This document shows, piece by piece, positions 7,596 to 26,794 of a stretch of DNA of 48,734 nt. A model generated the notes under the pieces. That model was not told where the DNA came from. It was given only the letters and a program-made list of their open reading frames with translations, and did not search any database. The stretch's first letter is position 1. Each line of letters starts with the position of its first letter. This DNA comes from Chloroflexota bacterium (GTDB lineage Bacteria; Chloroflexota; Dehalococcoidia; Bin125): contig JAPOXB010000075.1 of NCBI GenBank assembly GCA_026707335.1, positions 1-48,734 of the forward strand, read 5' to 3'. The position numbers were made by a program, and so were the translations under genes.

Positions 7596-8099
7596 CTACG
7601 GCTCACCCGACGGCCACTCCACTCCGCTCTCCACGATGTACTCGGTGCCCTCGGGAAGCGACCCAACGCGCGCTCGCAGGAAGGCCGGAAACAGGCCGGC
7701 GGCCTCCACCGACGCCAGCGGGATCCACTCGAACGTGGTCCCCGGCTCGACTCCCGCGAACCTGCCCTCGCGGCCGGTGACCGCGGAGCCCGGCCCGAAC
7801 TCGATCACGAAGTACAGGGCGACCTCCTGGAACCGGTCGTCGTCCAGGTCGAACAGGTGGTCCGACACGAACACGAGCCGGCCGACCGTCACCTCCTCGC
7901 CCAGCTCTTCCCGGACCTCCCGCGCCAGCGTCGCGGCGGCGCTCTCGCCGTACTCCACCCGACCGCCGGGGACGAAGCACAGGTCGTGACGCACGTCGTG
8001 CTCGACGAGCAGCCGCCCGCCGGACACGGCGATACCGCCCACGCGGTACATGAACGTGAGCCCGCCCTGCTGCGACATGATCATGCCGGGCGGTGTCAT
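7596..8099 (-). CDS. Nudix hydrolase
   Basis: Nudix box GGRVEYGESAAATLAREVREELGEEV (GX5EX7REUXEEXGU). Confidence 0.85.
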   Translation of the reverse strand: MTPPGMIMSQQGGLTFMYRVGGIAVSGGRLLVEHDVRHDLCFVPGGRVEYGESAAATLAREVREELGEEVTVGRLVFVSDHLFDLDDDRFQEVALYFVIEFGPGSAVTGREGRFAGVEPGTTFEWIPLASVEAAGLFPAFLRARVGSLPEGTEYIVESGVEWPSGEP

Positions 8100-8358
8100 C
8101 GCGGCTCCTCGAATCAGCGGGCGCTCCGCCGGCGTGACGACGTCGTTCGCGTGGGACTTCGGGCCGACGCCAACGCGCGCCCGATGTTACCGTCGGAGGC
8201 GCGGGTGGGGCCGCCTTCTCGGAGGCTGCGGTCGCAGCACTAGGCGATTGAGCCCTTCGGATCGTAGGGGCTAACGACCCCGGCTCCACCCGCGCCTCCC
8301 CCGTAGACCCTCGCCCGCCCGCCCCCTACCCTCCGACCCCACCGCAGGAGGCCCGACC

Positions 8359-9348: not shown

Positions 9349-9414
9349 CCGGCGGCGCAGTCGATCGCTACCCTGGTTCCGGGCAGGAAAGACGTGGACG
9401 GGTCTGGGTGAGCA

Positions 9415-12400: not shown

Positions 12401-13290
12401 TCGTCTCCGACTGCGCGATCCTGCTCACGGCGCTGTATGTGCTACGCGGCGACGCGCTCCTCAACTGGGATCCGGCGACGCCGATCACCGAGTGGGACGG
12501 CGTCAGCGTCAATGGCGAGCCGCCGCGCGTCACGCAGTTGGAACTCTCAGGGCGCCCGCTCACGGGGTCGATCCCCCCGCAGTTGGGCGGGCTGACGGCA
12601 CTCCGCGAGTTGCATCTCGCGCACACCCGCCTGAGCGGCGCCATCCCCGAGCAACTCGGTGACTTGGCGACCCTGGGCTCGCTGCGGCTGGCTGGCAATC
12701 AACTGACCGGGGCCATCCCGCCGGAACTCGGAGCCCTGTCAAATCTGCGGTCCCTGACTCTGAGTCACAACCAACTCAGCGGCCCGATCCCGCCGGAGCT
12801 TCGCGGGCTCAGCGCCCTACGCACCCTGTCGCTACACTATAACCAACTCAGCGGGCCGATACCGGCGGCGCTGGGCCAACTGGGCGACCTGGACTACGTC
12901 TCGTTGAACAACAACCAACTCACGGGCTCAATCCCCGCCGCCCTGGGGGCCTTGGCCGAACTGAGGCACCTGAGCCTGCGCATCAACCAACTGAGCGGTC
13001 CCATCCCGCCCGCGTGGGGAGCGCTGGGGGCTCTGCGGTACCTCTACCTCGACCACAACCAGCTCAGCGGTCCGATTCCAACTGAGTTGGGCTCGCTGCG
13101 CCACCTGAACACCCTATGGCTTCACAACAACCACCTCAGTGGCTCGATCCCAGCGGCGTTATCGGAGCTGGGAGACTTGGTGTATCTCTATCTGAGTGGC
13201 AATCCGATCACCGGCTGCGTGCCCGTGGCGGTCCGTGATGTGAAGTACAACGACCTCGACCAACTCTCCCTGCCCGACTGCCCGCCCTGA
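9415..13290 (+). CDS. Secreted multi-module plant-type LRR protein, 1291 aa, 4 capped modules (7/14/6/9 canonical 24-aa repeats by hand count)
   Basis: GTG start. The signal peptide is MRKRSAVLLATLLVVSLAVVTGRPSAAA. Modules start at the cap cysteines at nt 9508, 10312, 11614 and 12355. The repeat consensus is LxxLxxLxLxxNxL(T/S)GxIPxxLGx. Each module ends GNPGLTGC.P..LR....DL..L.LPDCPP. Confidence 0.9.
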   Translation: MRKRSAVLLATLLVVSLAVVTGRPSAAAPPTCENGVVVPDPEANRGLVLDCANLLAAKTQFTAPHPLNWGAETPIARWDGVTLGGYPPRVRELYLRARGFTGRVPPHLANVRELRELSLPDNQLTGSIPPELGSLRHLERLWLHGNQLTGGIPPELSSLRALEYLWLQDNHLTGGIPAELGTLSNLTDLLLRGNQLTGPIPAELGSLRDLRALWLQDNQFSGSIPPALGSLRSLRTLLLSDNELTGAIPAQLTSLISLEYLRLSGNAGLTGCIPQPLREVREHDLAEIGLPNCRPLPPPCEDGITVPNPAGNPGLVSDCAALLAARDQLRGYAALNWVRNIPITIWDGVTIEGDPPRVRGLELGRRGLTGAIPAQLGDLTALEEVRLDRNRLHGPIPPELGGLHNLRFLDLAYNHLRGSVPPELASLGKLGSLALDGNGLTGPIPPEISALSSLWYLGLGDNRLTGPIPAELAALLNLQELRLDTNQLTGPIPAALGSLPHLWRLRLNGNRLTGAIPAEIASLGALRYLHLHENRLSGAIPAALGSLPALETLSLNGNQLTGPIPPALGSLGALQFLGLGDNRLTGAIPPALGGLAWLRILTLSGNQLSGPIPDALGSLGTLSYLHLHDNQLTGRIPTALAGLITLRRLSLSENQLSGAIPGGLGVLRELEELSLHTNQLSGPIPTSLAWLSALRSLRLSGNPGLTGCVPPSLRDIGTNDLALPDCPPSAPSPCENGTAVANPEDNPALVLDCAILLGLRDTLTGDATLNWDPATPMWRWDGVVRGGWPRRVWALNLSRRSLSGRIPLELGRLAGLHSLRLDDNQLSGPIPATLGALRNLTNLSLSRNQLTGPIPAALASLRDLGDLGLRGNRLNGPIPPWLGSMSTLWRLELSENHLTGPIPAALGALADLKHLDLRDNQLSGPIPREVRLLDRTEKLYLGGNPGLTGCLPSVLRAVANNDLAGLSLPDCPPPPAPAQACVNGAAVAQAADNPGLVSDCAILLTALYVLRGDALLNWDPATPITEWDGVSVNGEPPRVTQLELSGRPLTGSIPPQLGGLTALRELHLAHTRLSGAIPEQLGDLATLGSLRLAGNQLTGAIPPELGALSNLRSLTLSHNQLSGPIPPELRGLSALRTLSLHYNQLSGPIPAALGQLGDLDYVSLNNNQLTGSIPAALGALAELRHLSLRINQLSGPIPPAWGALGALRYLYLDHNQLSGPIPTELGSLRHLNTLWLHNNHLSGSIPAALSELGDLVYLYLSGNPITGCVPVAVRDVKYNDLDQLSLPDCPP

Positions 13291-13340
13291 CCCGATCCCC
13301 TACCCTCCCCGCGCCCGACCCGGACGGCGGGAGGTGATCC

Positions 13341-15965
13341 GTGCGCACGCGCCCCGTCGCCGCTGGCCTCGCCGCGTTGCTGCTGCTCGCCGGGCTCGCC
13401 GCCGCGCCCGGCCCTGTCCGGGCCGCGCCCCCCACCTGCGAGAACGGCATCGTCGTCCCCGACCCCGAAGCCAACCGCGGCCTCGTCCTCGACTGCGCGA
13501 ACCTGCTCGCCGCCAAGACCCTGTTCGACGCCCCCACGCCGCTGAACTGGGGCGGCGAGACGCCGATCGCGGAGTGGGACGGCGTCACCGTCGGCGGGGA
13601 GCCGCCGCGCGTCGAGGAGTTGGACCTGTCGTCACGCGGCCTCACGGGCCGCATCGCGCCGCAACTGGGCCGTCTGACGGCGCTGCGCGAGTTGACGCTT
13701 CCCGACAACCGCCTCGCGGGGCCGATCCCGGATTCGCTGGGCGACCTGCGCGACCTGGAGTCGCTGTCGCTGCACGGCAACGCACTCGATGGCCCGCTTC
13801 CTCCAGGGCTGGGGCTGCTGGCCGCGCTGCGCTTCCTGGAGCTGCACGACAACCGGCTGACCGGCGCCATCCCCGAGCGATTCGGGAACCTGCGGGGCCT
13901 CGTCGTCCTCTCCCTGTCCGACAACCAACTGACGGGGCTGATCCCGCCGGCGCTGGGATCGCTGTCGACCCTGGAATCGCTGCGGCTCGACGGGAACCAG
14001 CTGACCTGGGTGATCCCCGCCGAGATGGGCGCCCTGCGCAACCTTCGCCATCTACTCCTGACGGACAACGACTTGGAGGGGCACATCCCGTCCGCGCTCG
14101 GGTTCCTGCGCGACTTGGAGTCGCTGTCGCTGGGCGGCAATCGGCTGAGCGGCGTCATCCCGCCGTGGCTGACCGACCTGTCCGCCCTGCGCTTGCTCGA
14201 TCTGGCCGGCAACGAATTCAAGGGGCCGATCCCGCCCGGGCTCGCGACGCTGGCCGGCCTCGACACCCTGCTGCTGGCCGACAACCGGCTGACCGGGCCG
14301 ATCCCGCCGGCGCTGGCCGAGATGCCCGCCCTGGCGCGGCTGTCGTTGGCCGGCAACCCCGGCCTCGACGGCTGCATTCCCCTGCCGTTGCACGACCTGC
14401 CCGACAACGACCTGAGCGACGTCCCTCTGCCCGACTGCCCGCCTCCCCATCCCTGCGAGACCGACGGCGCCGTGTTCAACGCCGCCGCCAGGCCCGGTCT
14501 CGTCTTCGACTGCAAGATCCTGCTCGGTCTCAAGGACACGCTCGCTGGGGAGGGTACGCTCAACTGGGACGCCGCGACCCCCATGCTGCTCTGGGACGGC
14601 ATCGTGATCCATGGGACGCCGCGGCGCGTCTGGGGAATCGACCTCACGTCGCGCGGGCTCACGGGGCGCATTCCGCCGGACCTCGCCGGCCTGACCGATC
14701 TGCGCGCGCTTTGGCTCGGGGGCAACCGGCTGACGGGCGGTATCCCGCCCGCGCTCGCGCTCTTGCCGCATCTGTCGAGCCTGCGGCTGCAGCGCAACCA
14801 GTTGGCCGGTCCCATCCCCCGCGAACTCGGCGCCCTGCCCCACCTGCAACTGCTCACGCTGTCCGACAACCGGCTGAGCGGTCACATCCCGCCGCAGTTG
14901 AGCGATCTGCCCGGCCTGATCTACCTCTCCCTCAACGGCAACCAACTCAGCGGCGAGATCCCGTCCGAGTTGGCGTCGCTGCCCAGCATCGGCTACCTCT
15001 GGCTGTACGGGAACCGGCTCAGCGGCTCGATCCCGGCGGCGCTCGGGTCGGTGGCGCAGCTCGTGCACCTCGACCTGCACGACAACCAGTTGAGCGGGGC
15101 CATCCCGGCGGAACTCGGCGACTTGGCTGCGCTCGGCTCGCTGCGGCTGCACGGCAATCAACTGAGCGGGCCCATCCCAGCGGAACTCGGGGCGCTGGCC
15201 AATCTGTGGGAGTTGTGGCTGGACGACAACCAACTCAGCGGTCCGATCCCGGCCGAGTTGGCCGCCCTGTCGCGGCTCTGGTTCCTGCGGCTGCAGGGCA
15301 ATCAACTGAGCGGCCCCATCCCGCCGGAACTCGGCTCGCTGCCCGTCCTGCGGCTGCTGCATCTGGGCGACAACGACCTGAGCGGCCCCATCCCGGCGGC
15401 GCTGGCATCCCTGCCCGGCCTGACGAACCTCCGCCTCAACGACAACAACCTCAGCGGCCCGATCCCGATCGAACTGGCGTCGATGCCCAGCCTGGGAGCC
15501 CTGCAGTTGTCCGGCAACCAGCTCAGCGGCCCCATCCCGGTCGAGTTGGCGTCGCTGTCGCAGCTGCGGGAACTGCGGCTGAGCGACAACCAGTTGAGCG
15601 GCCCCATCCCGCCGGCGCTCGCCGCGCTGGGCGGCATGCAGTACCTCTTCCTCGACGGCAACCAACTGACGGGCCCCATCCCGTGGTCGCTCGGCCTGCT
15701 GCGCCGCATGCAGGCCATCTCCCTCGCCGGCAACCAACTGAGCGGCCCCATCCCGCCGGAATTGGGCGCCCTCCGCTTCGTCTGGTTCGTGTCGCTCAGC
15801 GACAACCAACTCAGCGGCCCGATTCCGATCGAACTCGCGGATCTCCCCCGTTTGGCGGTCCTTTATCTGGGCGGCAACCAACTCAGCGGCTGCGTCCCCC
15901 CGGCGCTGCGGGACGTCCAGACGAACGACCTCGCGGACGTCGCCCTGCCCGACTGCCCGCCCTGA
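13341..15965 (+). CDS. Secreted multi-module plant-type LRR protein, 874 aa, 2 modules (10/17 repeats)
   Basis: GAGGTGATCC precedes the GTG start. The signal peptide ends VRA. The architecture matches 9415-13290. The protein ends LPDCPP followed by the stop codon. Confidence 0.9.
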   Translation: MRTRPVAAGLAALLLLAGLAAAPGPVRAAPPTCENGIVVPDPEANRGLVLDCANLLAAKTLFDAPTPLNWGGETPIAEWDGVTVGGEPPRVEELDLSSRGLTGRIAPQLGRLTALRELTLPDNRLAGPIPDSLGDLRDLESLSLHGNALDGPLPPGLGLLAALRFLELHDNRLTGAIPERFGNLRGLVVLSLSDNQLTGLIPPALGSLSTLESLRLDGNQLTWVIPAEMGALRNLRHLLLTDNDLEGHIPSALGFLRDLESLSLGGNRLSGVIPPWLTDLSALRLLDLAGNEFKGPIPPGLATLAGLDTLLLADNRLTGPIPPALAEMPALARLSLAGNPGLDGCIPLPLHDLPDNDLSDVPLPDCPPPHPCETDGAVFNAAARPGLVFDCKILLGLKDTLAGEGTLNWDAATPMLLWDGIVIHGTPRRVWGIDLTSRGLTGRIPPDLAGLTDLRALWLGGNRLTGGIPPALALLPHLSSLRLQRNQLAGPIPRELGALPHLQLLTLSDNRLSGHIPPQLSDLPGLIYLSLNGNQLSGEIPSELASLPSIGYLWLYGNRLSGSIPAALGSVAQLVHLDLHDNQLSGAIPAELGDLAALGSLRLHGNQLSGPIPAELGALANLWELWLDDNQLSGPIPAELAALSRLWFLRLQGNQLSGPIPPELGSLPVLRLLHLGDNDLSGPIPAALASLPGLTNLRLNDNNLSGPIPIELASMPSLGALQLSGNQLSGPIPVELASLSQLRELRLSDNQLSGPIPPALAALGGMQYLFLDGNQLTGPIPWSLGLLRRMQAISLAGNQLSGPIPPELGALRFVWFVSLSDNQLSGPIPIELADLPRLAVLYLGGNQLSGCVPPALRDVQTNDLADVALPDCPP

Positions 15966-15968
15966 CCG

Positions 15969-16156
15969 GTGCGCCATCCCCTACCCTGGCACGCGGCGGA
16001 GGCCACGCGTCGGGGGCGGAGGTGATCCGTGCGCACGCGCCGCGCGATCCTCCTCGCGGGCCTGCTGGCGGCCGTCCTGGCGGCGGTCGACGGACGTCCC
16101 GCCCGGGCGGAGCCCCCCACCTGCGAGAACGGCGTCGTCGTCCCCGACCCCGAGGT
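15969..16156 (+). repeat. 188-bp perfect direct repeat, copy A (intergenic leader plus the first 128 nt of the LRR gene)
   Basis: Identical base for base to 18573-18760 (offset 2604 bp). The flanks continue at high identity with isolated mismatches (15968, 16157). Confidence 0.9.
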
Positions 16157-18569
16157 TAACCGGGGCCTCGTCATCGACTGCGCGAACCTGCTCGCCGCGA
16201 AGACGCTGTTCACCGCGCCTCATCCGCTGAATTGGCGCGGCGAGACGCCGATTGCGGAGTGGGACGGCGTCACGCTCCTCGGCGAGCCCCCGCGCGTCGC
16301 CGAACTCAACCTTTCCTCGTATGGCCTATCGGGCCGCATTCCCCCGCAGTTGGGCCGCCTGTCGGCGCTGCGGAGTCTCTGGCTGCAGGACAGCAAGCTG
16401 ACCGGGGCCATCCCACCAGAACTCGGATCCCTACGCAACCTTGAAGTCCTGTCGTTGTGGGGCAACCAACTCAGCGGCGCGATCCCCATCCAACTGGCGG
16501 CCCTACCGGAGTTGGCGCAGTTGCATCTGGGCGGCAACCCTGGCCTGACCGGCTGTGTCCGGCTGGCGCTGTACGATGTGCCCAACAACGACTTCGCGGC
16601 GATCGGGCTACCGGGCTGTGACGGTTCACCGTCGCCCACGGCGACGTTCCCACCAGCGCCCATGCCGTCGTCCTGCGAGAACGGCATCGCCGTCCCCGAC
16701 CCCGTAGACAACCCCGGCCTCGTCTCCGACTGCGTCGCTCTTCTCGCCGCCAAGGCCGCGCTCGCCAGCGCCGCCCCCCTCAACTGGGATCCAGCCATCC
16801 CGGTCGGCGAATGGGACGGGATCCTCACCAGCGGCACCCCGCCGCGCGTGACCCTGCTGGCGCTGCTGGATCACGGTCTGCTGGGTCACATCCCAGCTCA
16901 ACTGGGCAGCCTCTCCGCACTTGAAGCTCTATGGCTCAGTGAGAACCGACTCACGGGCGTGATCCCGGCGGCGCTCGGATTGCTGGGAAACCTGGAGTCG
17001 CTGTGGCTGCACAAGAATCAGTTGACGGGCCCGATCCCGCCGCAGATCGGATCCTTACGGAGCCTGCAGTACCTGCGGTTGGACGAGAACCACCTCGGCG
17101 GTGGGATCCCCGCGGCCCTCGGATCACTGCGCGGCCTGCGGGATCTCTCACTGGCCGGCAACCAACTGACCGGCCCCATCCCCCCGGAGTTGGCCGCCCT
17201 CACGAACCTGGAGACGTTGCGGCTCAACGCCAACCACCTGCGTGGGCCCATCCCCAGTCCCCTGACATCCCTCACTTCCCTGCACACGCTGCGCTTAGAT
17301 GACAACGACATCACCGGTCCCATCCCGGCGGGATTGGGATCGCTGACCCGCCTGAGGCATCTATCACTGAACAACAACCAGATCGCAGGCCCAATCCCGG
17401 AGCAGTTGGGCGCGCTGCCCGACCTTCGTCACCTGTGGCTGCATGACAACCAACTCAGCGGCGCCATCCCCGCCGCGCTGGCGTCGCTGGGCGCCTTGAA
17501 TTCCGTGCAACTCAGCGGTAACCCGGGCCTGACCGGCTGCATCCCCGCCGCCCTGTCGGGCGTGCCGACGACCGATCTCATCGAGCTCGGCCTGCCCCGC
17601 TGCGACGGGGAGCCGCTGCTCACGTGTGAGAGCGGGGCCGCCGTCGCCGACCCCGCCGTCGCACCCGGCCTCGTCGCCGACTGCGCCATCCTCCTCAACA
17701 TCAAGGCCAGTCTCGCCGGCCGTGGCACGTTGAACTGGAGCGGCGGCGTGTCCATGAGCGACTGGGATGGTGTCACGATCGGCGGCGTCCCCCCGCGCGT
17801 CCACAAGCTGGAGTTGCCGCAGTACCACCTGACGGGTCGCATTCCCCCGGAACTGGGGGAGTTGACGGCACTGCGGGAACTGCGCCTGCATCACAACGCC
17901 TTGGCCGGGTCAATCCCAGCCGAGTTAGCGGCCCTTGGGTCGCTGGATGCGCTGTGGTTGTACGACAACCGCCTGACCGGGGCGATCCCGGCCGAGCTGG
18001 GGTCGCTGGAGAACCTGCGGTCCCTGTGGCTGCACAAGAATCGGCTGACGGGCCAGATCCCCCCGGCGTTGGCGTCCCTGCCCGAGATGGAATCTCTATC
18101 GCTGTTTCAGAACGAACTGACCGGGCCCATCCCCCCGGCGCTTGGCACGCTCCGCAAGCTGCGGCACTTGGCGCTCAGCGTGAACCACCTCAGCGGTCCC
18201 ATCCCAGCCGCGTTGGGGTCGCTGGTCAACCTGGAGGATCTGTCGCTGAGCGGGAACCGGCTCAGCGGTCCCATCCCAGCGGCGCTGGGGGAGTTGCGGA
18301 ATCTGCGGTTCCTGTACCTGAACTGGAACCAACTGAGCGGCCCCATCCCAATGGAACTCGGGGGCCTTGCGGCAGTCTCGCGCATCGGACTGGATCGGAA
18401 CCGGCTGACAGGCTCGATCCCGGCGCAACTGGCCACGCTCACGAACCTCCAGTCCCTCAGGCTGAGCTACAACCAGTTCACCGGTTGCATCCCGTCGGCG
18501 CTTCGCGACGTGCCATTAACCGACCTCGACGACCTCCCCCTGCCCGACTGCCCGCGGGAGCCGCCCTGA
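16029..18569 (+). CDS. Secreted multi-module plant-type LRR protein, 846 aa, 3 modules (3/9/9 repeats)
   Basis: GAGGTGATCC precedes the GTG start. The signal peptide MRTRRAILLAGLLAAVLAAVDGRPARA is identical to that of the next gene. The module caps are the same as in the other paralogs. Confidence 0.9.
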   Translation: MRTRRAILLAGLLAAVLAAVDGRPARAEPPTCENGVVVPDPEVNRGLVIDCANLLAAKTLFTAPHPLNWRGETPIAEWDGVTLLGEPPRVAELNLSSYGLSGRIPPQLGRLSALRSLWLQDSKLTGAIPPELGSLRNLEVLSLWGNQLSGAIPIQLAALPELAQLHLGGNPGLTGCVRLALYDVPNNDFAAIGLPGCDGSPSPTATFPPAPMPSSCENGIAVPDPVDNPGLVSDCVALLAAKAALASAAPLNWDPAIPVGEWDGILTSGTPPRVTLLALLDHGLLGHIPAQLGSLSALEALWLSENRLTGVIPAALGLLGNLESLWLHKNQLTGPIPPQIGSLRSLQYLRLDENHLGGGIPAALGSLRGLRDLSLAGNQLTGPIPPELAALTNLETLRLNANHLRGPIPSPLTSLTSLHTLRLDDNDITGPIPAGLGSLTRLRHLSLNNNQIAGPIPEQLGALPDLRHLWLHDNQLSGAIPAALASLGALNSVQLSGNPGLTGCIPAALSGVPTTDLIELGLPRCDGEPLLTCESGAAVADPAVAPGLVADCAILLNIKASLAGRGTLNWSGGVSMSDWDGVTIGGVPPRVHKLELPQYHLTGRIPPELGELTALRELRLHHNALAGSIPAELAALGSLDALWLYDNRLTGAIPAELGSLENLRSLWLHKNRLTGQIPPALASLPEMESLSLFQNELTGPIPPALGTLRKLRHLALSVNHLSGPIPAALGSLVNLEDLSLSGNRLSGPIPAALGELRNLRFLYLNWNQLSGPIPMELGGLAAVSRIGLDRNRLTGSIPAQLATLTNLQSLRLSYNQFTGCIPSALRDVPLTDLDDLPLPDCPREPP

Positions 18570-18572
18570 CCC

Positions 18573-18760
18573 GTGCGCCATCCCCTACCCTGGCACGCGG
18601 CGGAGGCCACGCGTCGGGGGCGGAGGTGATCCGTGCGCACGCGCCGCGCGATCCTCCTCGCGGGCCTGCTGGCGGCCGTCCTGGCGGCGGTCGACGGACG
18701 TCCCGCCCGGGCGGAGCCCCCCACCTGCGAGAACGGCGTCGTCGTCCCCGACCCCGAGGT
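18573..18760 (+). repeat. 188-bp perfect direct repeat, copy B
   Basis: Identical to 15969-16156. Confidence 0.9.
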
Positions 18761-21700
18761 CAACCGGGGTCTCGTCCTCGACTGCGCGAACCTGCTCGCC
18801 GCCAAGACGCAGATCGACCGCCGCCGCGGGATCAACTGGGGCGGTGAAACGCCGATCGGCGAGTGGGACGGCGTCACCGTCGGCGGCGAGCCGTTGCGCG
18901 TCATCGAGGTCGACCTGCGTTCGAGCTTCCTCCTGGGCCGCATCGCACCGCAGTTCGGGCGGCTCTCGGCGCTGCGCGGCCTCTACCTGCAGAACAACAA
19001 GCTGACCGGGCCCATCCCGCCGGAGCTGGGATCGCTGCCCGACCTGGAGTTCCTCTGGCTGTTCCGCAACGATCTCGACGGTCCCATCCCGCCGGAACTC
19101 GGCTCGCTGGGCAGCCTGCGCGAGCTGTGGATCAGCACCAACCAATTGACCGGCTCGATCCCCGACCATCTCGGGAACCTGCGCGCCCTGCGTCTCATGC
19201 GCCTGGAGAACAACGAACTGACCGGGTCGATCCCGCCGTCGCTGGGATCGCTGGCGAACGTCGAGACGCTGCGGCTCGACAAGAACCGGTTGACTTGGAA
19301 GATCCCTCCCGAGTTGGGCGCCCTGTCCAACCTGCGCAACCTGCGCCTGACCGATAACGACCTGGAGGGTCGGATCCCGCCTGCGCTCGGCGCGCTGCAG
19401 AACCTGGAGTCCCTGTCGATGGGGCACAACCGGCTGACCGGCGCCATCCCGCCGGAACTCGGCGATCTGTCGGCTCTGCGCAGTCTGTACTTGCGCCGGA
19501 ACCAACTGAGCGGCCCGATCCCCGAGGCGCTGGGGAACCTGCGCAACCTGCAAACCCTGTGGCTGAACCAGAACCAGTTGACCGGGCCGATCCCAGCCGT
19601 GCTGGGGAGTCTGTCCACTCTGCGGATTCTGGACCTGCAGCGGAACCAACTGAGCGGCCCGATCCCCGCGGAGCTTGGGGCGCTGCGCAACCTGAACGAG
19701 TTGTTGCTGAACAACAACCAACTCAGCGGGCCGTTCCCGCATGAACTCGCCGACCTGCCCTCGCTGGTGCAGTTGTACGTCTCCGCCAACCCCGGCCTGA
19801 CCGGCTGTGTCCCGCGGCGGCTGCTCTACCCCCGCCAAAACGACCTCTGGGCGAGCGGCCTGCCCGTCTGCACGCCGCCGCCGCCGCCCTGCGCGAACGC
19901 CGCGGCCGTGCCCGACCCCGCGTCGAACCGGGGTCTCTACCGCGACTGCAACATCCTCCTCTCGATCAAGGACACGCTCGACGCCCGCGCCCCCCTCGAC
20001 TGGGACGCCGGCACGCCGATCGCCGATTGGGAGGGCGTCACCGTCGGGGGGCCGACGCCGCACGTGATCGGGATCGACCTGTCGTCACGCCGCCTGACGG
20101 GGCAACTCCCGGTGGGCCTGCGCGGGCTGACGCAACTGCGGGAGTTGCGCCTCGACGACAACCGCCTCACCGGCCCCATCCCGCGCGAGTACAGCTTCCT
20201 CTCGCAGTTGCGGACCCTGTCGCTGGGCGGCAACCGGCTGACAGGCGAGATCCCGCCCAGGCTCGGAACCTTGCCGCGCCTAGAGGTTATCTCGCTCGGC
20301 GGCAATTGGCTGGTCGGTCCCATCCCGTCCGAGTTCGGATCCCTGGTCGAGTTGCGGGAGCTGCGGCTGGGCGGCAACCACCTGCGCGGCCCCATCCCCG
20401 CCGAGTTGGGCGCGCTGCCCAACCTGCGCCGTCTCGACGTGCGCGACAACCAACTGGCCGGGCCCATCCCCGGTGCGCTGCGTCTGCTCGACCGGGCCGA
20501 GGCGCTGCACCTGGGCGGCAACCCCGGCCTCACGGGCTGCGTCCCGGCCGCCCTGCGGGCCGTGCCCGACAACGACCTCGACGCCCTGGCGTTGCCCGAC
20601 TGCCCGCCGCCGACCCCGCCCGCGGAACCGTGTGCGAACGGCACGGTGGTCGCCGCGCCGGCCGAGCACGCCGGCCTCGTCGGCGACTGCGCGATCCTGC
20701 TCGCGGCGCTGCACGCGCTGCGCGGCGACGCCAGCCTGAACTGGAGCCCCGCGACGCCGATCACGGAGTGGGACGGCGTCACCCTCGAGGGGGCGCCGCC
20801 GCGCGTCGCGAAGCTGGACGTCTCGCAGCGCCCGCTCACAGGGCACATCCCGCCGGAGTTGGCCGGTCTGACCGAACTCCAAGAGCTGCACCTCGGCGGC
20901 AATCGGCTGACCGGCGCGATCCCGGCCGAGCTGGGCGCGCTGGCCCACCTGGAGATCCTGCGCCTGCACGGCAACCGCCTGACCGGTCCCATCCCGCCCG
21001 TGCTGGGCGCCTTCACGCAGTTGCGCGTGCTGTCGCTGGGGGAGAACCAGTTGGCCGGTCCCATCCCGGTCGAGTTGGGGGCGCTGGTCGCCCTGGAGTC
21101 GCTGACGCTGAGCGGCAACCAACTCACGGGTCCGATCCCATCCTCGCTGGGCGAGTTGCGCGCGCTGACGCTCCTCGCGTTGAGCGACAACCAGTTGAGC
21201 GGCCCGATCCCGGACTCGCTGGGCGGGCTGCCCGACCTGCGGCTGCTGACGCTGCGGGACAACCAGCTGACCGGCGCGATCCCGGCGTCGCTGGCCGAAC
21301 TGCGCAGCCTGACCGACCTCTATCTGACCGGCAACCAGCTCAGCGGCCCCATCCCGGCGGAGCTCGGTCTCCTCGATCGCTTGGAGCGCCTCTCCCTCGA
21401 CGACAACCAACTGACCGGCCCCATCCCCGCCGAGCTGGGAACGTCCCCGCGGCTGCGATCGCTGAGCTTGGCGGGGAACCCCGGCCTGACCGGCTGCATC
21501 CCGCGGGCGCTGCGCGGCATCCGGTCGACCGACCTCGACGACCTCCCCCTCGGCGACTGCCCGGCGCCGCCCCCGCCCCCGCCGCCGACGCCGCCCTGCG
21601 AGGCGGGCGTCGCCGTGGCCCACCCCGCCGACACCCCCGGCCTCGTCGCCGACTGCGCCGCTCTCCTCGCCGCCCGGGACGCGCTCGCTGGCGATGCCGC

Positions 21701-22388
21701 CCTCAACTGGGATCCCGCCGTCCCCATCACCGCCTGGGACGGCGTCACCGTCGGCGACACGCTCGCCCGCGTCTGGCGCCTCGACCTCCAGTCACGCGGG
21801 CTCACGGGCCGCGTCCCGCCGCAACTGGGCGATCTCGCGGCGCTGCGCTTCCTGTCGCTCCACGGCAATCGGCTGAGCGGCCCGATCCCGGTCGAACTGG
21901 CGGCGCTTCGCAGTTTGGAATATGCGGATCTGGGCGGAAACCAACTCGCGGGCCCGATCCCGGCGGCGCTGGGGTCGATGCCCCGGCTGGACGCGCTGCT
22001 GCTGCACGACAACCGGCTGAGCGGCCCGATCCCGGCCGAACTCGGGTCGGCGCGGGCCCTGCGGTTCCTCTGGCTGCACCACAACGGCCTGACGGGCCCG
22101 AGCCCGGTCGAGTTGGGGCTCCTGGGCAGCCTGGAATCCCTGCGGCTGGACGGCAACCGGCTGAGCGGCCCGATCCCGGCCGAGCTGGGCGCCCTGCGCG
22201 CCCTGTCGGAGTTGCGCCTGGCCGACAACCATCTGACCGGCGCCATCCCGGCGTCGCTGGGCGAGTTGCCCCACCTGACCGACCTCTACCTGGCGCACAA
22301 CCCGCTCGGCGGCTGCATCCCCGCGCCGCTGCGCGCGATCGCGGCGACCGACCTCGACCAGATCCCGCTCCCCGACTGCCCACCTTGA
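18633..22388 (+). CDS. Secreted multi-module plant-type LRR protein, 1251 aa, 4 modules (12/6/9/7 repeats)
   Basis: Same leader, SD and GTG start as 16029. It has four cap-to-cap modules joined by Pro-rich linkers (e.g. PDCPAPPPPPPPTPPCEAG). Confidence 0.9.
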   Translation: MRTRRAILLAGLLAAVLAAVDGRPARAEPPTCENGVVVPDPEVNRGLVLDCANLLAAKTQIDRRRGINWGGETPIGEWDGVTVGGEPLRVIEVDLRSSFLLGRIAPQFGRLSALRGLYLQNNKLTGPIPPELGSLPDLEFLWLFRNDLDGPIPPELGSLGSLRELWISTNQLTGSIPDHLGNLRALRLMRLENNELTGSIPPSLGSLANVETLRLDKNRLTWKIPPELGALSNLRNLRLTDNDLEGRIPPALGALQNLESLSMGHNRLTGAIPPELGDLSALRSLYLRRNQLSGPIPEALGNLRNLQTLWLNQNQLTGPIPAVLGSLSTLRILDLQRNQLSGPIPAELGALRNLNELLLNNNQLSGPFPHELADLPSLVQLYVSANPGLTGCVPRRLLYPRQNDLWASGLPVCTPPPPPCANAAAVPDPASNRGLYRDCNILLSIKDTLDARAPLDWDAGTPIADWEGVTVGGPTPHVIGIDLSSRRLTGQLPVGLRGLTQLRELRLDDNRLTGPIPREYSFLSQLRTLSLGGNRLTGEIPPRLGTLPRLEVISLGGNWLVGPIPSEFGSLVELRELRLGGNHLRGPIPAELGALPNLRRLDVRDNQLAGPIPGALRLLDRAEALHLGGNPGLTGCVPAALRAVPDNDLDALALPDCPPPTPPAEPCANGTVVAAPAEHAGLVGDCAILLAALHALRGDASLNWSPATPITEWDGVTLEGAPPRVAKLDVSQRPLTGHIPPELAGLTELQELHLGGNRLTGAIPAELGALAHLEILRLHGNRLTGPIPPVLGAFTQLRVLSLGENQLAGPIPVELGALVALESLTLSGNQLTGPIPSSLGELRALTLLALSDNQLSGPIPDSLGGLPDLRLLTLRDNQLTGAIPASLAELRSLTDLYLTGNQLSGPIPAELGLLDRLERLSLDDNQLTGPIPAELGTSPRLRSLSLAGNPGLTGCIPRALRGIRSTDLDDLPLGDCPAPPPPPPPTPPCEAGVAVAHPADTPGLVADCAALLAARDALAGDAALNWDPAVPITAWDGVTVGDTLARVWRLDLQSRGLTGRVPPQLGDLAALRFLSLHGNRLSGPIPVELAALRSLEYADLGGNQLAGPIPAALGSMPRLDALLLHDNRLSGPIPAELGSARALRFLWLHHNGLTGPSPVELGLLGSLESLRLDGNRLSGPIPAELGALRALSELRLADNHLTGAIPASLGELPHLTDLYLAHNPLGGCIPAPLRAIAATDLDQIPLPDCPP

Positions 22389-22458: not shown

Positions 22459-23493
22459 GTGCGCACGTGCGCCTTCTCCTTCCTTCTCGCGGCGCTGCTG
22501 CTGGCCGGTCTCGCGGCGGTGGGCGGGCGCCCCGCCCAGGCCGCGCCCGCCACCTGCGAGAACGGCGTCGTCGTCCCCGACCCCGAGGCCAACCGCGGCC
22601 TCGTCATCGACTGCGCCAACCTGCTGGCCGCCAAGACCCAGTTCAGCGCTCGCCGGCCGCTCAACTGGGGCGGCGAGACGCCCATCGCCGAGTGGGACGG
22701 GGTGACCCTGGGCGGCGACCCGCCGCGCGTGTGGAAGGTGCACCTGCGGTCGCGCGGGCTCACGGGCCGCGTCGCGCCGCAGTTCGCCAACCTCCGCGAG
22801 TTGCGCGAACTGGCGCTGCACCACAACCGGCTGACGGGTCCCATCCCGGCCGGACTCGGGTCGCTGCGCCATTTGGAGCGCCTATGGCTCGACGGCAACC
22901 ATCTCAGCGGGTCGATCCCGCCCGCGCTCGGATCGCTGCGCAGCCTGCGCGAACTCTGGCTGCACGACAACCAACTGACCGGCCGCATCCCATCGGAGCT
23001 GGGAGAGCTGCCTTCCCTCGAACGTCTGTGGCTCTACGACAACCAACTGACGGGCCCGATCCCGCCGACGTTGGGATCGCTCTCCGGCCTTCGGTCCCTG
23101 CTGCTGCACGGCAACCAACTATCGGGCCGCATCCCGCCGGAGTTGGGGTCGCTGGACGGCCTGCGACTGCTGTGGCTGAAGGACAACCAACTCACGGGCC
23201 GGATCCCGGCGGCGCTCGGGTCGCTGGGCGAGGTGCTGGACCTGCTGCTCGAGCGCAACCAGCTGACGGGCGCGATTCCCGCCTCGTTCGCCGCCCTGCG
23301 CAGCGTGAAGCGGCTGCACCTCGACGACAACCAGCTCATGGGTCCGATGCCCGCCTGGCTGTCCTCCCTCCCCGATCTGACCTCTCTGCGCCTGAGCGGC
23401 AACCCCGGCCTGACCGGCTGCATCCCCCCGTCGCTGCGGGAGGTCCGCCGGCATGACTTGGCGGAGGCCGGCCTGCCCGACTGCCCGCCCTGA
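22459..23493 (+). CDS. Secreted single-module plant-type LRR protein, 344 aa (9 repeats plus caps; PGIP-like size and layout)
   Basis: GAGGTGATCC precedes the GTG start. The signal peptide ends AQA. It has one N-cap, 9 LRRs and one C-cap ending LPDCPP. Confidence 0.9.
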   Translation: MRTCAFSFLLAALLLAGLAAVGGRPAQAAPATCENGVVVPDPEANRGLVIDCANLLAAKTQFSARRPLNWGGETPIAEWDGVTLGGDPPRVWKVHLRSRGLTGRVAPQFANLRELRELALHHNRLTGPIPAGLGSLRHLERLWLDGNHLSGSIPPALGSLRSLRELWLHDNQLTGRIPSELGELPSLERLWLYDNQLTGPIPPTLGSLSGLRSLLLHGNQLSGRIPPELGSLDGLRLLWLKDNQLTGRIPAALGSLGEVLDLLLERNQLTGAIPASFAALRSVKRLHLDDNQLMGPMPAWLSSLPDLTSLRLSGNPGLTGCIPPSLREVRRHDLAEAGLPDCPP

Positions 23494-26500: not shown

Positions 26501-26794
26501 CCCATCCCAGCGGCGTTCGGCATGCTGCGCGACCTGGAGACCCTGCTGCTTGAGGGGAATCGACTGACCGGCCCGATCCCCGCGGAATTGGGGGCGCTGC
26601 CTCGGCTCCGGTCCTTGCAGCTGTTCAACAACCGACTGATTGGACCCATCCCCTTCGATCTGCAGGCGCTGCCGGCCCTGGAACTGCTGAACCTTAGCGG
26701 CAACGCTGGCCTCACCGGCTGCATCCCGCCTGCACTTCACGACGTCCGCTACAACGACCTCGCCGACCTCTCCCTCCCCGACTGCCCGCCGTGA
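23552..26794 (+). CDS. Secreted multi-module plant-type LRR protein, 1080 aa, 4 modules (3/13/3/8 repeats)
   Basis: GAGGTGATCC precedes the GTG start. The signal peptide ends SQA. The architecture matches the other paralogs. Confidence 0.9.
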   Translation: MRKYALPSLIAASAALLLVVLAPGSSQAAPPTCENGVVVPDPEANRGLVADCASLLAAKTQLKASTPLNWGADTPIAEWDGVGLGGEPTRVWKLHLRSRGLTGRIAAQLTNVRELRELSLPDNQLTGPIPPALGSLRHLEGLWLNGNQLSGPIPSQLRHSPKLEYLYLGSNGRFTGCVPRALHDVPYNDFASLDLRGCARALPPPFPCGNGIAVPNPAENLGLVSDCVALLAAKDPLRGDVALNWSAAVPIAAWDSVTIDGAPPRVSRLVLSRRVLTGVIPAELGNLANLEVLSLSHNQLTGPIPGALGALTHLRELSLGGNQLSGPIPAVLGALSHLEVLSLDSNSLTGPIPGALGALTHLRELSLGGNQLSGPIPGALGALAALEYLWLQDNQLSGSIPSALGSLSNLRQLRLQYNHLTGAIPAELGLLGRLWELRLHDNQLSGAIPPDLGALPSLGFLLLYNNRLSGVIPPALGMLGRLRNLELYGNQLTGPIPEALGGLTNLRSLWLSRNQLSGPIPVALASLRGLESLGLNENQLTGPIPPQLGSMDHLVYLWLRDNQLTGPVPAELGLLGSLESLRLGGNPGLTGCIPPRLRDVTGHDLADVPLPDCHDSPPPCENGIAVPNPADHPGLVHDCEVLLAAELTLADGASLNWYAGIPITTWDGVTVAGTPPRVQRLELPSHGLGGRIPAVLGSLARLQTLNLESNGLTGVIPAELGDLHDLRDLRLNSNRLAGAIPPTLASRFTLETVYLADNPWLTPCIPPGLRHVPRNDLHDLGLPDCIPGVTLTCQTGSAVANPNGNPGLVGDCTILLAANATLAGDATLNWDVGVPIGSWDGITVRGSPPRVVEIDLQLRGLTGLIPPALGGLSELRKLFLPSNQLRGGIPAELGTLQELRILALSFNELSGSIPRQLGSLHNLEDFTIVGNQLEGEIPAELGSLHKLWQLALSNNQLVGPIPPELGALSRLRHLGLGGNQLTGPIPAAFGMLRDLETLLLEGNRLTGPIPAELGALPRLRSLQLFNNRLIGPIPFDLQALPALELLNLSGNAGLTGCIPPALHDVRYNDLADLSLPDCPP
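24449..24683 (+). repeat. Internal tandem duplication with a 144-bp period (two LRR units) inside the LRR gene
   Basis: 24449-24539 and 24593-24683 differ at only 2 of 91 positions (24469 and 24532). Both encode LTGPIPGALGALTHLRELSLGGNQLSGPIP. Confidence 0.85.

What the first reader, a model, noticed from the sequence alone, without database searches (positions are those of the whole stretch)
15961..18765. Evidence for recent duplication, gene conversion and module shuffling among the LRR paralogs
Seen: 15969-16156 and 18573-18760 are identical over 188 bp. This stretch covers the intergenic leader, SD, GTG start, signal peptide and start of the N-cap of two adjacent genes, while the rest of the genes differ. 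Other relationships are mosaic. The first module of 13341-15965 and the first module of 18633-22388 share an unusual run (..NQLTWVIPAEMGALRNLRHLLLTDNDLEGHIP.. versus ..NRLTWKIPPELGALSNLRNLRLTDNDLEGRIP..). The junction of modules 3 and 4 in 9415-13290 closely parallels the junction of modules 2 and 3 in 18633-22388. Compare ..LLDRTEKLYLGGNPGLTGC..ATPITEWDGVSVNGEPPRVTQLELSGRPLTG.. with ..LLDRAEALHLGGNPGLTGC..ATPITEWDGVTLEGAPPRVAKLDVSQRPLTG... The first modules of 9415, 22459 and 23552 share ..RELRELSLPDNQLTG.IP..LGSLRHLE.LWL... Inference: whole capped modules behave as cassettes, exchanged or duplicated by homologous recombination between paralogs.
Basis: partly seen in the sequence, partly recalled or inferred. 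Interest (0 to 1): 0.65.

Follow-up and report, generated by a model that had tools for sequence, protein, structure and literature searches.

The report
Gene conversion in symbiont LRR array
Two neighbouring genes for secreted, plant-like leucine-rich-repeat proteins in a sponge-associated Dehalococcoidia bacterium share a freshly copied 5' end, and their six-gene array gains and loses genes between close relatives: an ordinary way for such families to evolve, documented here in an unusual host.

Summary
15969-16156 and 18573-18760 are identical (188/188). They form the core of a 250-bp tract (15957-16206 vs 18561-18810, 245/250) with a sharp right edge inside the first N-cap.

It is not an assembly artefact. 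An independent ENA assembly and the unitig graphs of two samples reproduce both copies.

Comparison with long-read Dehalococcoidia MAGs gives strong phylogenetic discordance:
- Inside the tract, G3 groups with the window's own G4 (99% bootstrap), nested among G4 orthologues.
- Just right of the tract, G3 lies outside all G4 orthologues (100%).

So G4-type 5' sequence (leader, SD, GTG, signal peptide, half an N-cap) was copied onto an old paralogue, G3, after the split from the nearest sequenced species.

G3 is an accessory gene flanked by these direct repeats. It is absent, leaving G2-R-G4, in two related species and one ~96%-identical population. G1, G5, G6 and G7 are also variably present.

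Module order is conserved in orthologues. The exchange tracts detected end inside caps or LRR arrays, not at module borders; the one module-precise event is the presence or absence of G4M4.

Verdict: gene conversion and birth-and-death are supported; "whole modules as cassettes" only partly. This is a new member of a known kind.

The parts
15969..16156 (+). R copy 1: the exact 188-bp repeat, core of the 250-bp 98% tract 15957-16206. Holds the leader, SD (16018-16025), GTG start 16029, signal peptide and first 43 codons of G3.
18573..18760 (+). R copy 2: the exact 188-bp repeat, core of 18561-18810. Holds the same features for G4 (SD 18622-18629, GTG 18633).
9415..13290 (+). G1: secreted LRR protein, 1291 aa, 4 capped modules (aa 32-293, 300-726, 734-971, 981-1289). 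Accessory: no counterpart in L005 or L010, and its body has zero depth in population X6. GC3 0.855.
13341..15965 (+). G2: 874 aa, 2 modules (33-366, 372-872). Core gene with orthologues in L005, L010, L007 and L009. GC3 0.917.
16029..18569 (+). G3: 846 aa, 3 modules (32-197, 216-525, 533-841). Accessory gene flanked by the two R copies. Its 5' 250 bp is G4-derived; the rest is an old paralogue. GC3 0.848.
18633..22388 (+). G4: 1251 aa, 4 modules (32-413, 420-657, 667-976, 989-1249). Core gene. Orthologues have 4 modules in L005 and L010, and 3 modules (no M4) in L006, L007 and L009.
22459..23493 (+). G5: 344 aa, a single capped module (33-342). Orthologues in L005, L006 and L008; absent in L010. 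Modelled at pLDDT 96 as a plant-type capped LRR solenoid.
23552..26794 (+). G6: 1080 aa, 4 modules (33-198, 208-613, 620-785, 793-1078). Accessory: absent in L005 and L010, and structurally different in X6. GC3 0.826.
12118..12621 (+). G1 block: last LRRs and C-cap of M3, linker, N-cap and first LRR of M4. It is 75-82% identical to the G4 M2/M3 junction block; flanks are about 58-65%.
20394..20897 (+). G4 counterpart of the G1 junction block (M2 C-cap, linker, M3 N-cap).
13919..14101 (+). G2M1 units 6-7 (..NQLTWVIP..TDNDLEG..), about 80% identical to G4M1 units 6-7 at 19208-19390. Collinear paralogy.
19208..19390 (+). G4M1 units 6-7, counterpart of 13919-14101.
9606..9857 (+). G1M1 first LRRs (RELRELSLPDNQLTG..), 80-82% identical to G5 (22653-22829) and G6 (23853-23997). 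The G1-G6 run 9759-9789 / 23899-23929 is significant (global p = 0.012).
29943..31676 (-). G7: seventh family member, 577 aa. One capped module (aa 59-320) plus a 250-aa C-terminal region with no Pfam match. Absent in L010.

Best explanation
What the locus is (shown). The window comes from a sponge-associated Dehalococcoidia (Chloroflexota) chromosome. Between housekeeping genes sits a same-strand array of six genes spaced 50-70 nt apart, with a seventh gene nearby. They encode Sec-type secreted proteins built from 1-4 tandem capped LRR modules. Each module has:
- a 58-aa N-cap with a Cys-x19-Cys pair and a W-D-G-V motif;
- 4-18 plant-type 24-residue repeats of the form LxxLxLxxNxLxGxIPxxLGxLxx;
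- a C-cap with a second Cys pair.

What the 188-bp identity is (shown by discordant phylogeny). It is the core of a 250-bp tract of ectopic homologous recombination, that is, gene conversion, between the 5' ends of adjacent paralogues 2.6 kb apart. G4-type sequence was written onto G3. The copied stretch carries the leader with SD, the GTG start, the signal peptide and the first 59 codons. G3 is an old sister paralogue of the whole G4 clade. The event post-dates the split from the nearest sequenced relatives.

What is inferred:
- Homogenisation probably recurs and may run both ways. In a second sponge sample the two copies differ at 3 sites.
- The two copies now act as direct repeats that allow gain or loss of the intervening gene. 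G3 is missing, leaving G2-R-G4, in two related species and one ~96%-identical population.
- More generally, the array evolves by birth-and-death. The best-conserved nucleotide stretches (5' leader, signal and N-cap; cap ends) serve as recombination substrates.
- A stable core (G2, G4, G5) evolves under purifying selection.
- The likely function is extracellular binding to host or other surface ligands, as proposed for sponge-symbiont eukaryotic-like LRR proteins. Repertoire differences would then give strain-specific interaction profiles.
For: The repeat is real and local:
- 188/188 exact, 245/250 extended, only two copies in the window.
- Permutation test global p < 0.0002.

It is not an artefact:
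- ENA scaffold ERZ23497053 scaffold_1082 spans window 6894-21105 with 3 mismatches, none in R, and carries both copies.
- In sample X1, unitigs break exactly at the repeat edges. The repeat unitig has depth 24.4 against 12.6-17.5 for its flanks.
- In sample S2, a contig anchored in the G3 3' end carries R with 18640A/18680T/18701C. A contig anchored in the G3 body carries the window haplotype. So two distinct R copies flank G3.

Discordance:
- Inside the tract, wG3 vs wG4 is 98%, wG3 vs the G4 orthologues of L005 and L010 is 88-89%, and wG3 vs the G2 family is 69-74%.
- In 16207-16500, wG3 is 68-71% identical to every G4 orthologue, while wG4 is 86-91% identical to them.

NJ bootstrap:
- Tract: (wG3,wG4) 99%, nested in (wG4, L005, L010) 100%.
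- Right of tract: G4 orthologues monophyletic without wG3 100%; wG3 sister to the whole G4 clade 99.8%.

Third positions: 42/42 identical in the coding part of R, against 0.57-0.61 immediately downstream.

Structural variation in relatives:
- L005 has ADH-G2'-G4'-G5'-HemN. L010 has ADH-G2'-G4'-HemN. L006, L007 and L009 have a 3-module G4'.
- X6 has zero depth on G3-specific segments, while the G2 end, a single-depth R unitig and the G4 start are at about 30x.
- X10 holds contigs 91-93% identical to the G3 body, so G3 is older than the tract.

Core genes are constrained: dN/dS 0.18-0.43 and dS 0.23-0.30 against L005 and L010.

Fold and family:
- Pfam LRR families hit all six proteins.
- PDB sequence hits are plant LRR receptor kinases.
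- The AlphaFold model of G5 has pLDDT 96 and pTM 0.92. Its best structural matches are MIK2, GSO1, FLS2 and LRX8.

Context:
- Source and relatives are sponge metagenomes and Dehalococcoidia MAGs.
- Leucine-rich repeat proteins are listed among the eukaryotic-like proteins postulated to mediate host-microbe interactions in sponge symbionts (PMC6306507).
Against: - Non-reciprocity cannot be shown from one haplotype. A reciprocal crossover, or integration of G3 by a single crossover in R, would leave the same picture.
- The direction and recurrence of the latest event rest on low-depth (3-8x) Logan contigs of a possibly mixed population.
- Contigs can hide 1-2 real differences between the copies, because assemblers pop bubbles.
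- Absence of G3 in X6 is inferred from zero contig depth, not from a spanning read.
- No orthologue of the G3 body was found in the fetched loci or in JGI metagenomes. G3's earlier history is therefore open: ancestral with several losses, or a later gain.
- Function is inferred only. No expression data were obtained. The positions expected on the concave face are not fast-evolving in the core genes.
Confidence: 0.8

Rival explanations
1. Insertion footprint rather than conversion between resident paralogues. G3 entered the G2-G4 interval recently, either by unequal sister-chromosome exchange or by single-crossover integration of an excised or foreign G3-bearing fragment at the G4 5' end. The two R copies would be the duplicated crossover homology.
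For: - R flanks G3 exactly as a pair of direct repeats.
- G3 is absent, leaving G2-R-G4, in L005, L010 and X6.
- The variably present genes have lower GC3 (G1 0.855, G3 0.848, G6 0.826) than the core genes (0.913-0.924).
- No G3 orthologue was found in the related loci.
Against: - Right of the tract, G3 is a sister of the whole G4 clade. It is a family member of long standing, not foreign.
- A population (X10) carries G3-like sequence at 91-93%, so G3 predates the near-zero divergence of R.
- In sample S2 the two R copies differ at 3 sites while the rest of the locus is nearly identical to the window. This fits later homogenisation in the window strain better than a single insertion.
- The left edge of identity coincides with the stop codon of the upstream gene. 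The identity gradient (100%, then 86%, then about 70%) suggests overlapping events.
Confidence: 0.13
2. Assembly artefact. The identity, or the placement of G3, results from repeat collapse, bubble popping or a chimeric join between co-occurring strains in a metagenome.
For: - The source is a metagenome, and R (188 bp) may be longer than a single short read (read lengths are not on record).
- Related strains lacking G3 exist.
- Contigs drop rare variants (tool description).
Against: - An independent assembly gives the same path and identical copies.
- Depths of G1-G4 in X1 are uniform (about 11-17x), and the R unitig is about 1.5-2x that.
- In sample S2, different R haplotypes are physically linked to the two ends of G3. 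This excludes a G3-R circle or collapse.
- Long-read MAGs of relatives carry the same R-type leader in front of G4.
Confidence: 0.03
3. Constraint, not exchange. The leader, signal peptide and N-cap are identical because selection preserves a regulatory and export signal.
For: - All six leaders share a TANNNT hexamer (TACCCT in five, TACGAT upstream of G6) and the stretch GAGGTGATCCGTG (GGGTGAGCAGTG upstream of G1).
- First-module N-caps are the most conserved part of the family, at 76-88% nt.
Against: - Other paralogue pairs are only about 70-75% identical over the same tract (wG3 or wG4 vs wG2 0.74-0.75). True G4 orthologues are only 88-90%.
- All 42 third positions and all 60 non-coding leader positions inside R are identical.
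- The tract ends abruptly in mid-domain.
Confidence: 0.02
4. A programmed variation system. The array would be a contingency locus in which frequent recombination between cassettes switches the displayed or secreted LRR repertoire within a population, by analogy with pilE/pilS or vlsE.
For: - Tandem homologous genes with conserved recombination-prone ends.
- Strain-level presence or absence of genes.
- A clustered 3-SNP polymorphism at 11570-11580 that recreates the exact C-cap motif of G4M3 and G4M4.
Against: - Every gene has its own SD, start codon and signal peptide, so there are no silent promoterless cassettes.
- No recombinase, reverse transcriptase or mobile-element gene was found among the ORFs scanned in the window.
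- Core genes keep module order and are under purifying selection across species.
- Apart from R, all paralogous similarity is 85% or less.
Confidence: 0.05

Closest known systems
Gene conversion and unequal crossing-over in tandem LRR gene clusters of plants (NLR clusters such as RPP8; PMC6771003, PMC3645687)
   Same: - Tandem LRR paralogues.
- Short, high-identity exchange tracts on a diverged background.
- Presence or absence of cluster members between haplotypes.
- Birth-and-death dynamics.
   Different: - This is a bacterial chromosome with no meiosis.
- The proteins are secreted, all-LRR and multi-module, with no NB-ARC or kinase domain.
- The young tract covers the promoter-proximal leader and signal peptide rather than the ligand-binding repeats.
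Recombination in bacterial and parasite LRR surface families: Listeria internalins (PMC2532693, PMC2518857) and Leishmania PSA (PMC2584048)
   Same: - Multigene families of secreted or surface LRR proteins implicated in host interaction.
- They evolve by recombination as well as point mutation.
   Different: - By my own knowledge, internalins use 22-residue repeats with an inter-repeat domain and wall anchors. Here the repeats are plant-type 24-residue units with Cys-containing N- and C-caps, repeated as up to four complete capped domains per protein.
- No anchor motif was seen.
Eukaryotic-like repeat proteins (ANK, TPR, LRR) of sponge symbionts, including Chloroflexi (PMC6306507)
   Same: - Sponge-metagenome origin and Chloroflexota lineage.
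- LRR proteins with signal peptides.
- The proposed role is mediation of host-microbe interaction.
   Different: That paper (as read) reports such proteins as genomic features of the symbionts. This locus adds a resolved tandem array with strain- and species-level gene gain and loss and a dated conversion tract. Function remains untested in both cases.
Plant LRR receptor-kinase, LRX and PGIP-type ectodomains (MIK2 8weh, GSO1 6s6q, FLS2 4mn8, LRX8 6tme)
   Same: - 24-residue plant-specific repeat consensus.
- The W-x-G-V motif of the N-cap aligns with the plant C-x-W-x-G-V-x-C cap.
- The predicted fold superposes on these structures: TM 0.79-0.85 normalised to the query, and 0.82-0.84 both ways for LRX8.
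   Different: - No transmembrane or kinase part.
- The cap cysteines are placed differently: Cys-x19-Cys upstream, with no Cys after WDGV.
- Pfam LRRNT_2 was not among the families reported at E <= 0.01.
- Several complete capped domains are strung in one chain.
Slit proteins: four tandem LRR domains, each with its own N- and C-terminal cysteine caps (own knowledge, not tested here)
   Same: A 'beads on a string' architecture of independently capped LRR domains joined by short linkers.
   Different: Animal proteins with a different LRR class and different cap families. This is an analogy of architecture only, with no evidence of homology.
Lamprey VLR assembly from flanking LRR cassettes (own knowledge, not tested here)
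   Same: LRR-encoding cassettes are recombined through short homologies by a gene-conversion-like process.
   Different: VLR assembly is somatic and programmed, uses an incomplete germline gene plus silent cassettes, and depends on cytidine deaminases. Here all genes are complete and the exchange is evolutionary.

Membership tests
Interparalogue gene conversion / ectopic homologous recombination tract | A segment of much higher identity between paralogues than in the flanking homologous sequence, beyond chance. | tested here: met
   245/250 against about 69-73% downstream. A run of 104 polymorphic sites, global permutation p < 0.0002.
Interparalogue gene conversion / ectopic homologous recombination tract | Phylogenetic discordance: paralogues group together within a genome in the tract, but by orthology outside it. 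| tested here: met
   (wG3,wG4) 99% in the tract. G4 orthologues exclude wG3 at 100% right of it.
Interparalogue gene conversion / ectopic homologous recombination tract | Non-reciprocal transfer: the donor is unchanged and the acceptor overwritten. | tested here: inconclusive
   The tract is G4-type in species that lack G3, so G4 was the original donor. Reciprocal exchange or crossover-mediated insertion cannot be excluded from the haplotypes available.
Interparalogue gene conversion / ectopic homologous recombination tract | Not explained by assembly error. | tested here: met
   Independent assembly, unitig depth and anchored haplotypes.
Plant-specific (PS) class LRR domain | 24-residue repeat with consensus LxxLxLxxNxLxGxIPxxLGxLxx. 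| tested here: met
   72-nt / 24-aa periodicity and consensus. PDB sequence hits to plant LRR receptor kinases, best E 1.6e-162.
Plant-specific (PS) class LRR domain | LRRNT_2-type N-terminal cap (Pfam PF08263). | tested here: inconclusive
   PF08263 was not among the Pfam families reported at E <= 0.01. However, the WDGV segment aligns with the GSO1 cap, and the model superposes on capped plant domains.
Sponge-symbiont eukaryotic-like proteins (ELPs) | Repeat protein of a eukaryote-typical class, encoded by a sponge-associated bacterium. | tested here: met
   Runs holding the sequence are mostly sponge metagenomes, with a few marine and other samples. Relatives are Dehalococcoidia MAGs. Context from PMC6306507.
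Sponge-symbiont eukaryotic-like proteins (ELPs) | Demonstrated interaction with host cells or proteins. | not testable with these tools
   Needs expression and binding or uptake assays.
Cassette-based antigenic or phase variation (pilE/pilS, vlsE type) | One expression site plus silent, promoterless or 5'-truncated donor cassettes. | tested here: not met
   All six genes have a leader, SD, start codon and signal peptide.
Diversity-generating retroelement | Reverse transcriptase with a template/variable repeat pair. | tested here: not met
   No RT domain among the flanking ORFs scanned. The repeat pair is identical rather than adenine-mutated.
Internalin family | 22-residue LRRs with an N-terminal helical cap, an inter-repeat Ig-like domain and a wall anchor. 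| tested here: not met
   The repeat length is 24 aa. No non-LRR Pfam domain was found in G1-G6 apart from one sub-threshold hit (Dict-STAT-coil in G4, E 0.0074, below its cut-off). The proteins end in LPDCPP directly after the C-cap.

The most novel reading that the evidence does not exclude
The array is a symbiont 'repertoire locus'. The conserved 5' cassette (putative promoter, SD, signal peptide, half N-cap) and the cap ends would be maintained as portable recombination handles. Through them, whole genes and terminal modules are swapped, deleted and re-inserted among co-resident strains inside sponges. Each strain would then carry a different set of secreted plant-type LRR binders that tune recognition by, or evasion of, the host's innate immune and phagocytic machinery. 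R homogenisation would be the visible trace of an ongoing, selectively favoured process rather than an accident.
Probability: 0.2. Interest if true: 0.7.

Novelty: new member of a known kind. Interest (0 to 1): 0.45.

Why it matters
Sponge symbionts are rich in eukaryotic-like repeat proteins, but how these repertoires diversify is poorly resolved, because short-read MAGs break at such repeats.

This locus gives a resolved example:
- a conserved core (G2, G4, G5) under purifying selection;
- accessory members (G1, G3, G6, G7) that come and go between populations 96% to about 87% identical;
- a conversion tract that can be dated relative to species splits and that also copies the expression and export signals;
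- one module-precise gain or loss (G4M4).

It supplies natural presence/absence variants that could be correlated with host species or individuals. It also points to the 5' region and cap ends as the places where recombination acts.

For annotation, it warns that these arrays are prone to mis-assembly and that gene counts of LRR proteins in symbiont MAGs are strain-specific.

The evolutionary mechanism itself is ordinary for tandem LRR families.

Tried and rejected
- Protein homology search with G3. The list was dominated by long, 32-49% identical LRR proteins. No near-identical relatives were shown, so it did not help find orthologous loci.
- JGI metagenome scan with G3 modules 2-3. Matches were 24-41% identical over most of the query, plus one partial match at 63%, so the origin of the G3 body stays open.
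- Exact-protein look-up of the HemN neighbour: not on record.
- RNA-run search. Only one run of unknown kind was returned, so there is no expression evidence.
- Rfam on the whole window, and promoter and terminator scans on the array. There was no RNA family, no sigma-70 consensus and no + strand terminator between the genes. The minus-strand 'terminators' are LRR codon artefacts.
- The idea that the L005 G2-like gene is a G2/G3 deletion hybrid, suggested by one long BLAST HSP. A sliding comparison rejected it: the gene is G2-type to its end, with one 72-nt LRR deletion.
- The idea that the 3-module G4 orthologues are M3/M4 fusions. Rejected: their M3 is collinear with the window's M3 to its end. 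My end-anchored comparison to M4 in that call was out of register and is not used.
- Expected diversifying selection on the LxxLxLxxN variable positions. Not seen in the core orthologues: dN/dS 0.02-0.59, lower than at the other variable positions.
- PADLOC search of the low-GC HATPase-like ORF: no hit.
- A simple recent tandem duplication creating G3. Rejected because the 3' ends of G2 and G3 upstream of the two R copies are dissimilar, and the G3 body is only 68-71% identical to G4.

Full report
**1. Checking the observation**

The two stretches 15969-16156 and 18573-18760 are identical over 188 bp. After a single mismatch on each side, near-identity continues. 15957-16206 vs 18561-18810 is 245/250, with a sharp fall at 16207 to about 69-73% and to background beyond about 16440. 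Within the window only these two copies exist; the next best match is 85%.

I aligned the 5' regions of the six paralogues and applied a GENECONV-style permutation test. G3 and G4 agree at 104 consecutive polymorphic sites, and none of 5000 permutations reached this.

- the 63-nt intergenic leader;
- SD GGAGGTGA;
- the GTG start;
- a Sec-like signal peptide;
- the beginning of the first N-cap.

All 42 third-codon positions in the coding part of the perfect core are identical, against 0.57-0.61 just downstream.

**2. Is it an artefact?**

The window is from a sponge metagenome. Three lines of evidence argue against an artefact.
- An independently produced ENA scaffold (ERZ23497053 scaffold_1082, 14,212 bp) matches window 6894-21105 with three mismatches. 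All three are at 11570-11580. The scaffold carries both copies unchanged.
- In the best-matching run (X1), de Bruijn contigs end exactly 30 nt into each edge of the repeat. The repeat contig has depth 24.4 against 12.6-17.5 for the flanks, as expected for two copies.
- In a second sample (S2), a contig anchored in the G3 3' end runs into R carrying 18640A/18680T/18701C. A contig anchored in the G3 body carries the window haplotype. So two physically distinct R copies flank G3. In that population they differ at three sites, while the rest of the locus is almost identical to the window.

Exact identity in the window strain could hide one or two popped-bubble differences. The structure itself is sound.

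**3. What the genes are**

Six + strand ORFs make up the array:
- G1 9415-13290
- G2 13341-15965
- G3 16029-18569
- G4 18633-22388
- G5 22459-23493
- G6 23552-26794

A seventh ORF, G7, lies on the other strand at 29943-31676. All are LRR proteins.

I segmented them into 19 modules. Each module has a fixed-length 58-aa N-cap (Cys-x19-Cys, with Trp at +46 in WDGV), 4-18 repeats of 24 aa, and a C-cap ending ..GC.P..L......DL....LPDC.

The repeats are of the plant-specific class. PDB sequence hits are plant LRR receptor kinases such as GSO1, MIK2, FLS2 and BRI1. An AlphaFold model of G5 reaches pLDDT 96 and pTM 0.92. It superposes on MIK2, GSO1 and FLS2 ectodomains and, over its whole length, on LRX8.

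The flanks are housekeeping genes: SecF, SelB, HAD, NUDIX and ADH upstream; HemN-like, AspRS, an Opp-type transporter, trigger factor, ClpP/X and SDH downstream. The ORFs scanned contain no recombinase, reverse transcriptase or mobile element. No Rfam family was found in the window, and no terminator or sigma-70 consensus in the array.

**4. Relatives**

A genome-collection scan with the first-module N-cap found syntenic arrays in long-read Dehalococcoidia MAGs. Their flanks are 92-97% (L005) and 92-93% (L010) identical to the window. Orthologous LRR genes are 85-88% identical.

Gene content differs:
- L005: ADH-G2'-G4'-G5'-HemN.
- L010: ADH-G2'-G4'-HemN, and it also lacks G7.
- L006: ADH-G4'(3 modules)-G5'-HemN.
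- L007 and L009: a G1-like gene, G2' and a 3-module G4'.

L005's G2' is G2-type to its stop codon. G3 is therefore simply absent there.

Module positions of G2, G4 (M1-M3) and G5 are conserved in all of these species. Orthologue comparisons give dN/dS 0.18-0.43 with dS 0.23-0.30. The core genes are functional and vertically inherited.

**5. The decisive test**

I aligned the window's G3 and G4 5' regions with the G4 and G2 orthologues.
- Inside the tract, wG3 is 98% identical to wG4, 88-89% to the L005 and L010 G4 orthologues, and 69-74% to the G2 family.
- In 16207-16500, wG3 is 68-71% identical to every G4 orthologue, whereas wG4 is 86-91% identical to them.

Bootstrapped NJ trees agree.
- Tract: (wG3,wG4) 99%, nested within (wG4, L005, L010) at 100%.
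- Right of the tract: G4 orthologues are monophyletic without wG3 at 100%, and wG3 is sister to the whole G4 clade at 99.8%.

So G3 is an old paralogue whose 5' 250 bp was replaced by the resident G4 sequence after the window lineage separated from L005 and L010. This is the classical signature of gene conversion.

The leaders of the L006 and L009 G4 orthologues resemble G2-type leaders more than the window's G4 leader. This suggests that 5'-end swapping is recurrent in the family.

**6. G3 as an accessory gene between direct repeats**

In population X6 (about 96% identical in G2 and G4), G3-specific segments (16220-16324, 18400-18504) have zero contig depth. The G2 3' end (36.7x), a single-depth R contig (31x) and the G4 start (30.5x) are all present. 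The G1 body is also missing there, although the ADH-G1-leader junction is present.

Another population (X10) holds contigs 91-93% identical to the G3 body. G3 therefore long predates the near-zero divergence of R.

I infer that the homologous 5' ends act as substrates both for conversion and for deletion or insertion of the intervening gene. The rival reading is that the R pair is the footprint of a crossover-mediated insertion of G3. It explains the direct-repeat geometry and the lower GC3 of the variable genes (G1 0.855, G3 0.848, G6 0.826 vs 0.913-0.924). It fits less well with the age of G3, with its membership of the G4 sister lineage, and with the 3-site difference between copies in S2. 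I give it about 0.13.

**7.

All are present, but none is recent. An all-against-all comparison of the 175 in-phase LRR units has a maximum of 85% nt, from a two-unit tandem duplication in G6M2. The 99th percentile is 72%.

The G1 M3/M4 vs G4 M2/M3 junction is a discrete block of about 500 nt at 75-82% identity. Third-position identity is mostly about 0.7-0.9 in the block (range 0.58-0.88), against about 0.4-0.6 in the flanks. The block therefore appears younger than its surroundings and is a genuine mosaic. Its borders lie inside the LRR arrays. The G1M4 N-cap is about equally distant (76-84%) from every G4M3 orthologue, so the event is roughly as old as the species splits.

G1M3 is chimeric: its N-cap is nearest to G2M2 (76%) and its C-cap nearest to G4M2 (77%).

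The G2M1/G4M1 'TW.IP...TDNDLEG' run lies in units 6-7 of both modules, so it is collinear paralogy.

The first-module N-caps of all six genes cluster at 76-88%, against 60-72% to internal N-caps. This position-specific conservation speaks for whole-gene ancestry plus 5' homogenisation, not free module shuffling.

The only module-precise event I found is the presence or absence of G4M4.

**8. Comparison with what is known**

The dynamics match those of tandem LRR families in plants (NLR clusters such as RPP8; PMC6771003, PMC3645687), of Listeria internalins (PMC2532693) and of Leishmania PSA (PMC2584048).

The proteins fit the 'eukaryotic-like' LRR proteins reported for sponge symbionts, including Chloroflexi (PMC6306507).

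The locus does not meet the definition of a silent-cassette antigenic-variation system, because every gene has its own start signals. It also does not meet the definition of a DGR.

I therefore class it as a new member of a known kind.

**9. Caveats**

- The population inferences rest on low-depth assembled contigs.
- Non-reciprocity, and the direction of the most recent event, are not proven.
- The function in host interaction is inferred from family and habitat only.

Noticed in passing
window 11570-11580 (G1M2 C-cap): An independent assembly (L004) differs from the window at only three positions over 14 kb, and all three fall within 11 bp. The variant reads CGACCGACCTCG, the exact motif of the G4M3 (21526) and G4M4 (22345) C-caps, and changes N to T. 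X1 contigs break at this site, so both forms probably coexist in one sample. It looks like a short conversion tract between caps.
   Followed up: partly
window 9369, 13301, 15982, 18586, 22414 (TACCCT) and 23506 (TACGAT): Every LRR gene leader carries a TANNNT hexamer 39-47 nt upstream of its start, and it is conserved in the relatives' leaders. Five of the seven + strand TACCCT sites in the window are these leaders. A sixth (8327) lies 32 nt upstream of the ADH start. This may be a -10-like element giving each gene its own promoter. R would then copy regulation as well as the export signal.
   Followed up: partly
window G1, G3, G6 vs G2, G4, G5: The variably present genes have significantly lower third-position GC (0.826-0.855, SE about 0.01) than the conserved core LRR genes (0.913-0.924) and most of the likely coding ORFs called in the flanks (about 0.92-0.97). 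This could reflect a different origin, age or expression level.
   Followed up: partly
window 29943-31676 (- strand): G7 is a seventh family member with one capped LRR module followed by a 250-aa C-terminal region with no Pfam match. The whole gene is missing in L010, where AspRS is followed directly by the peptide-binding protein gene.
   Followed up: partly
window 4603-6826: A low-GC island (56-62% against 70%) holds a 666-aa ORF (4734-6734, - strand) with weak HATPase_c / HATPase_c_3 matches. In L005 it is replaced by about 345 nt. It has no PADLOC hit. It is probably a horizontally acquired accessory gene.
   Followed up: partly
window 24408-24726 (G6M2): A tandem duplication of a two-LRR unit (units 2-3 vs 4-5, 83-85% nt). 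This is the most similar pair of repeats in the array apart from R.
   Followed up: yes
C-caps of terminal modules: window 13177-13281, 15861-15956, 18447-18551, 22275-22379: There are two C-cap types. Most modules have a 36-aa form with GN(P/A)GLTGC. The last modules of G1-G4 have a 35-aa form (GNPITGC, GNQLSGC, YNQFTGC, HNPLGGC). The G2 orthologues of L010, L007 and L009 end with the 36-aa type instead, which suggests C-cap replacement between species.
   Followed up: partly
window 24286-26752 (G6) vs run X6: A 5,458-nt contig of population X6 matches G5 and the start of G6. It then has about 1.9 kb that does not align at 90% or better, and resumes at 26752. G6 is therefore about 570 nt shorter and internally different in that population.
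   Followed up: no
window 16035-16055 / 18639-18659: The shared G3/G4 signal peptide begins MRTRRAILL, which resembles a twin-arginine (S/T-R-R-x-F-L-K) motif. The other paralogues lack the RR pair. I did not test whether export is by Tat or Sec.
   Followed up: no
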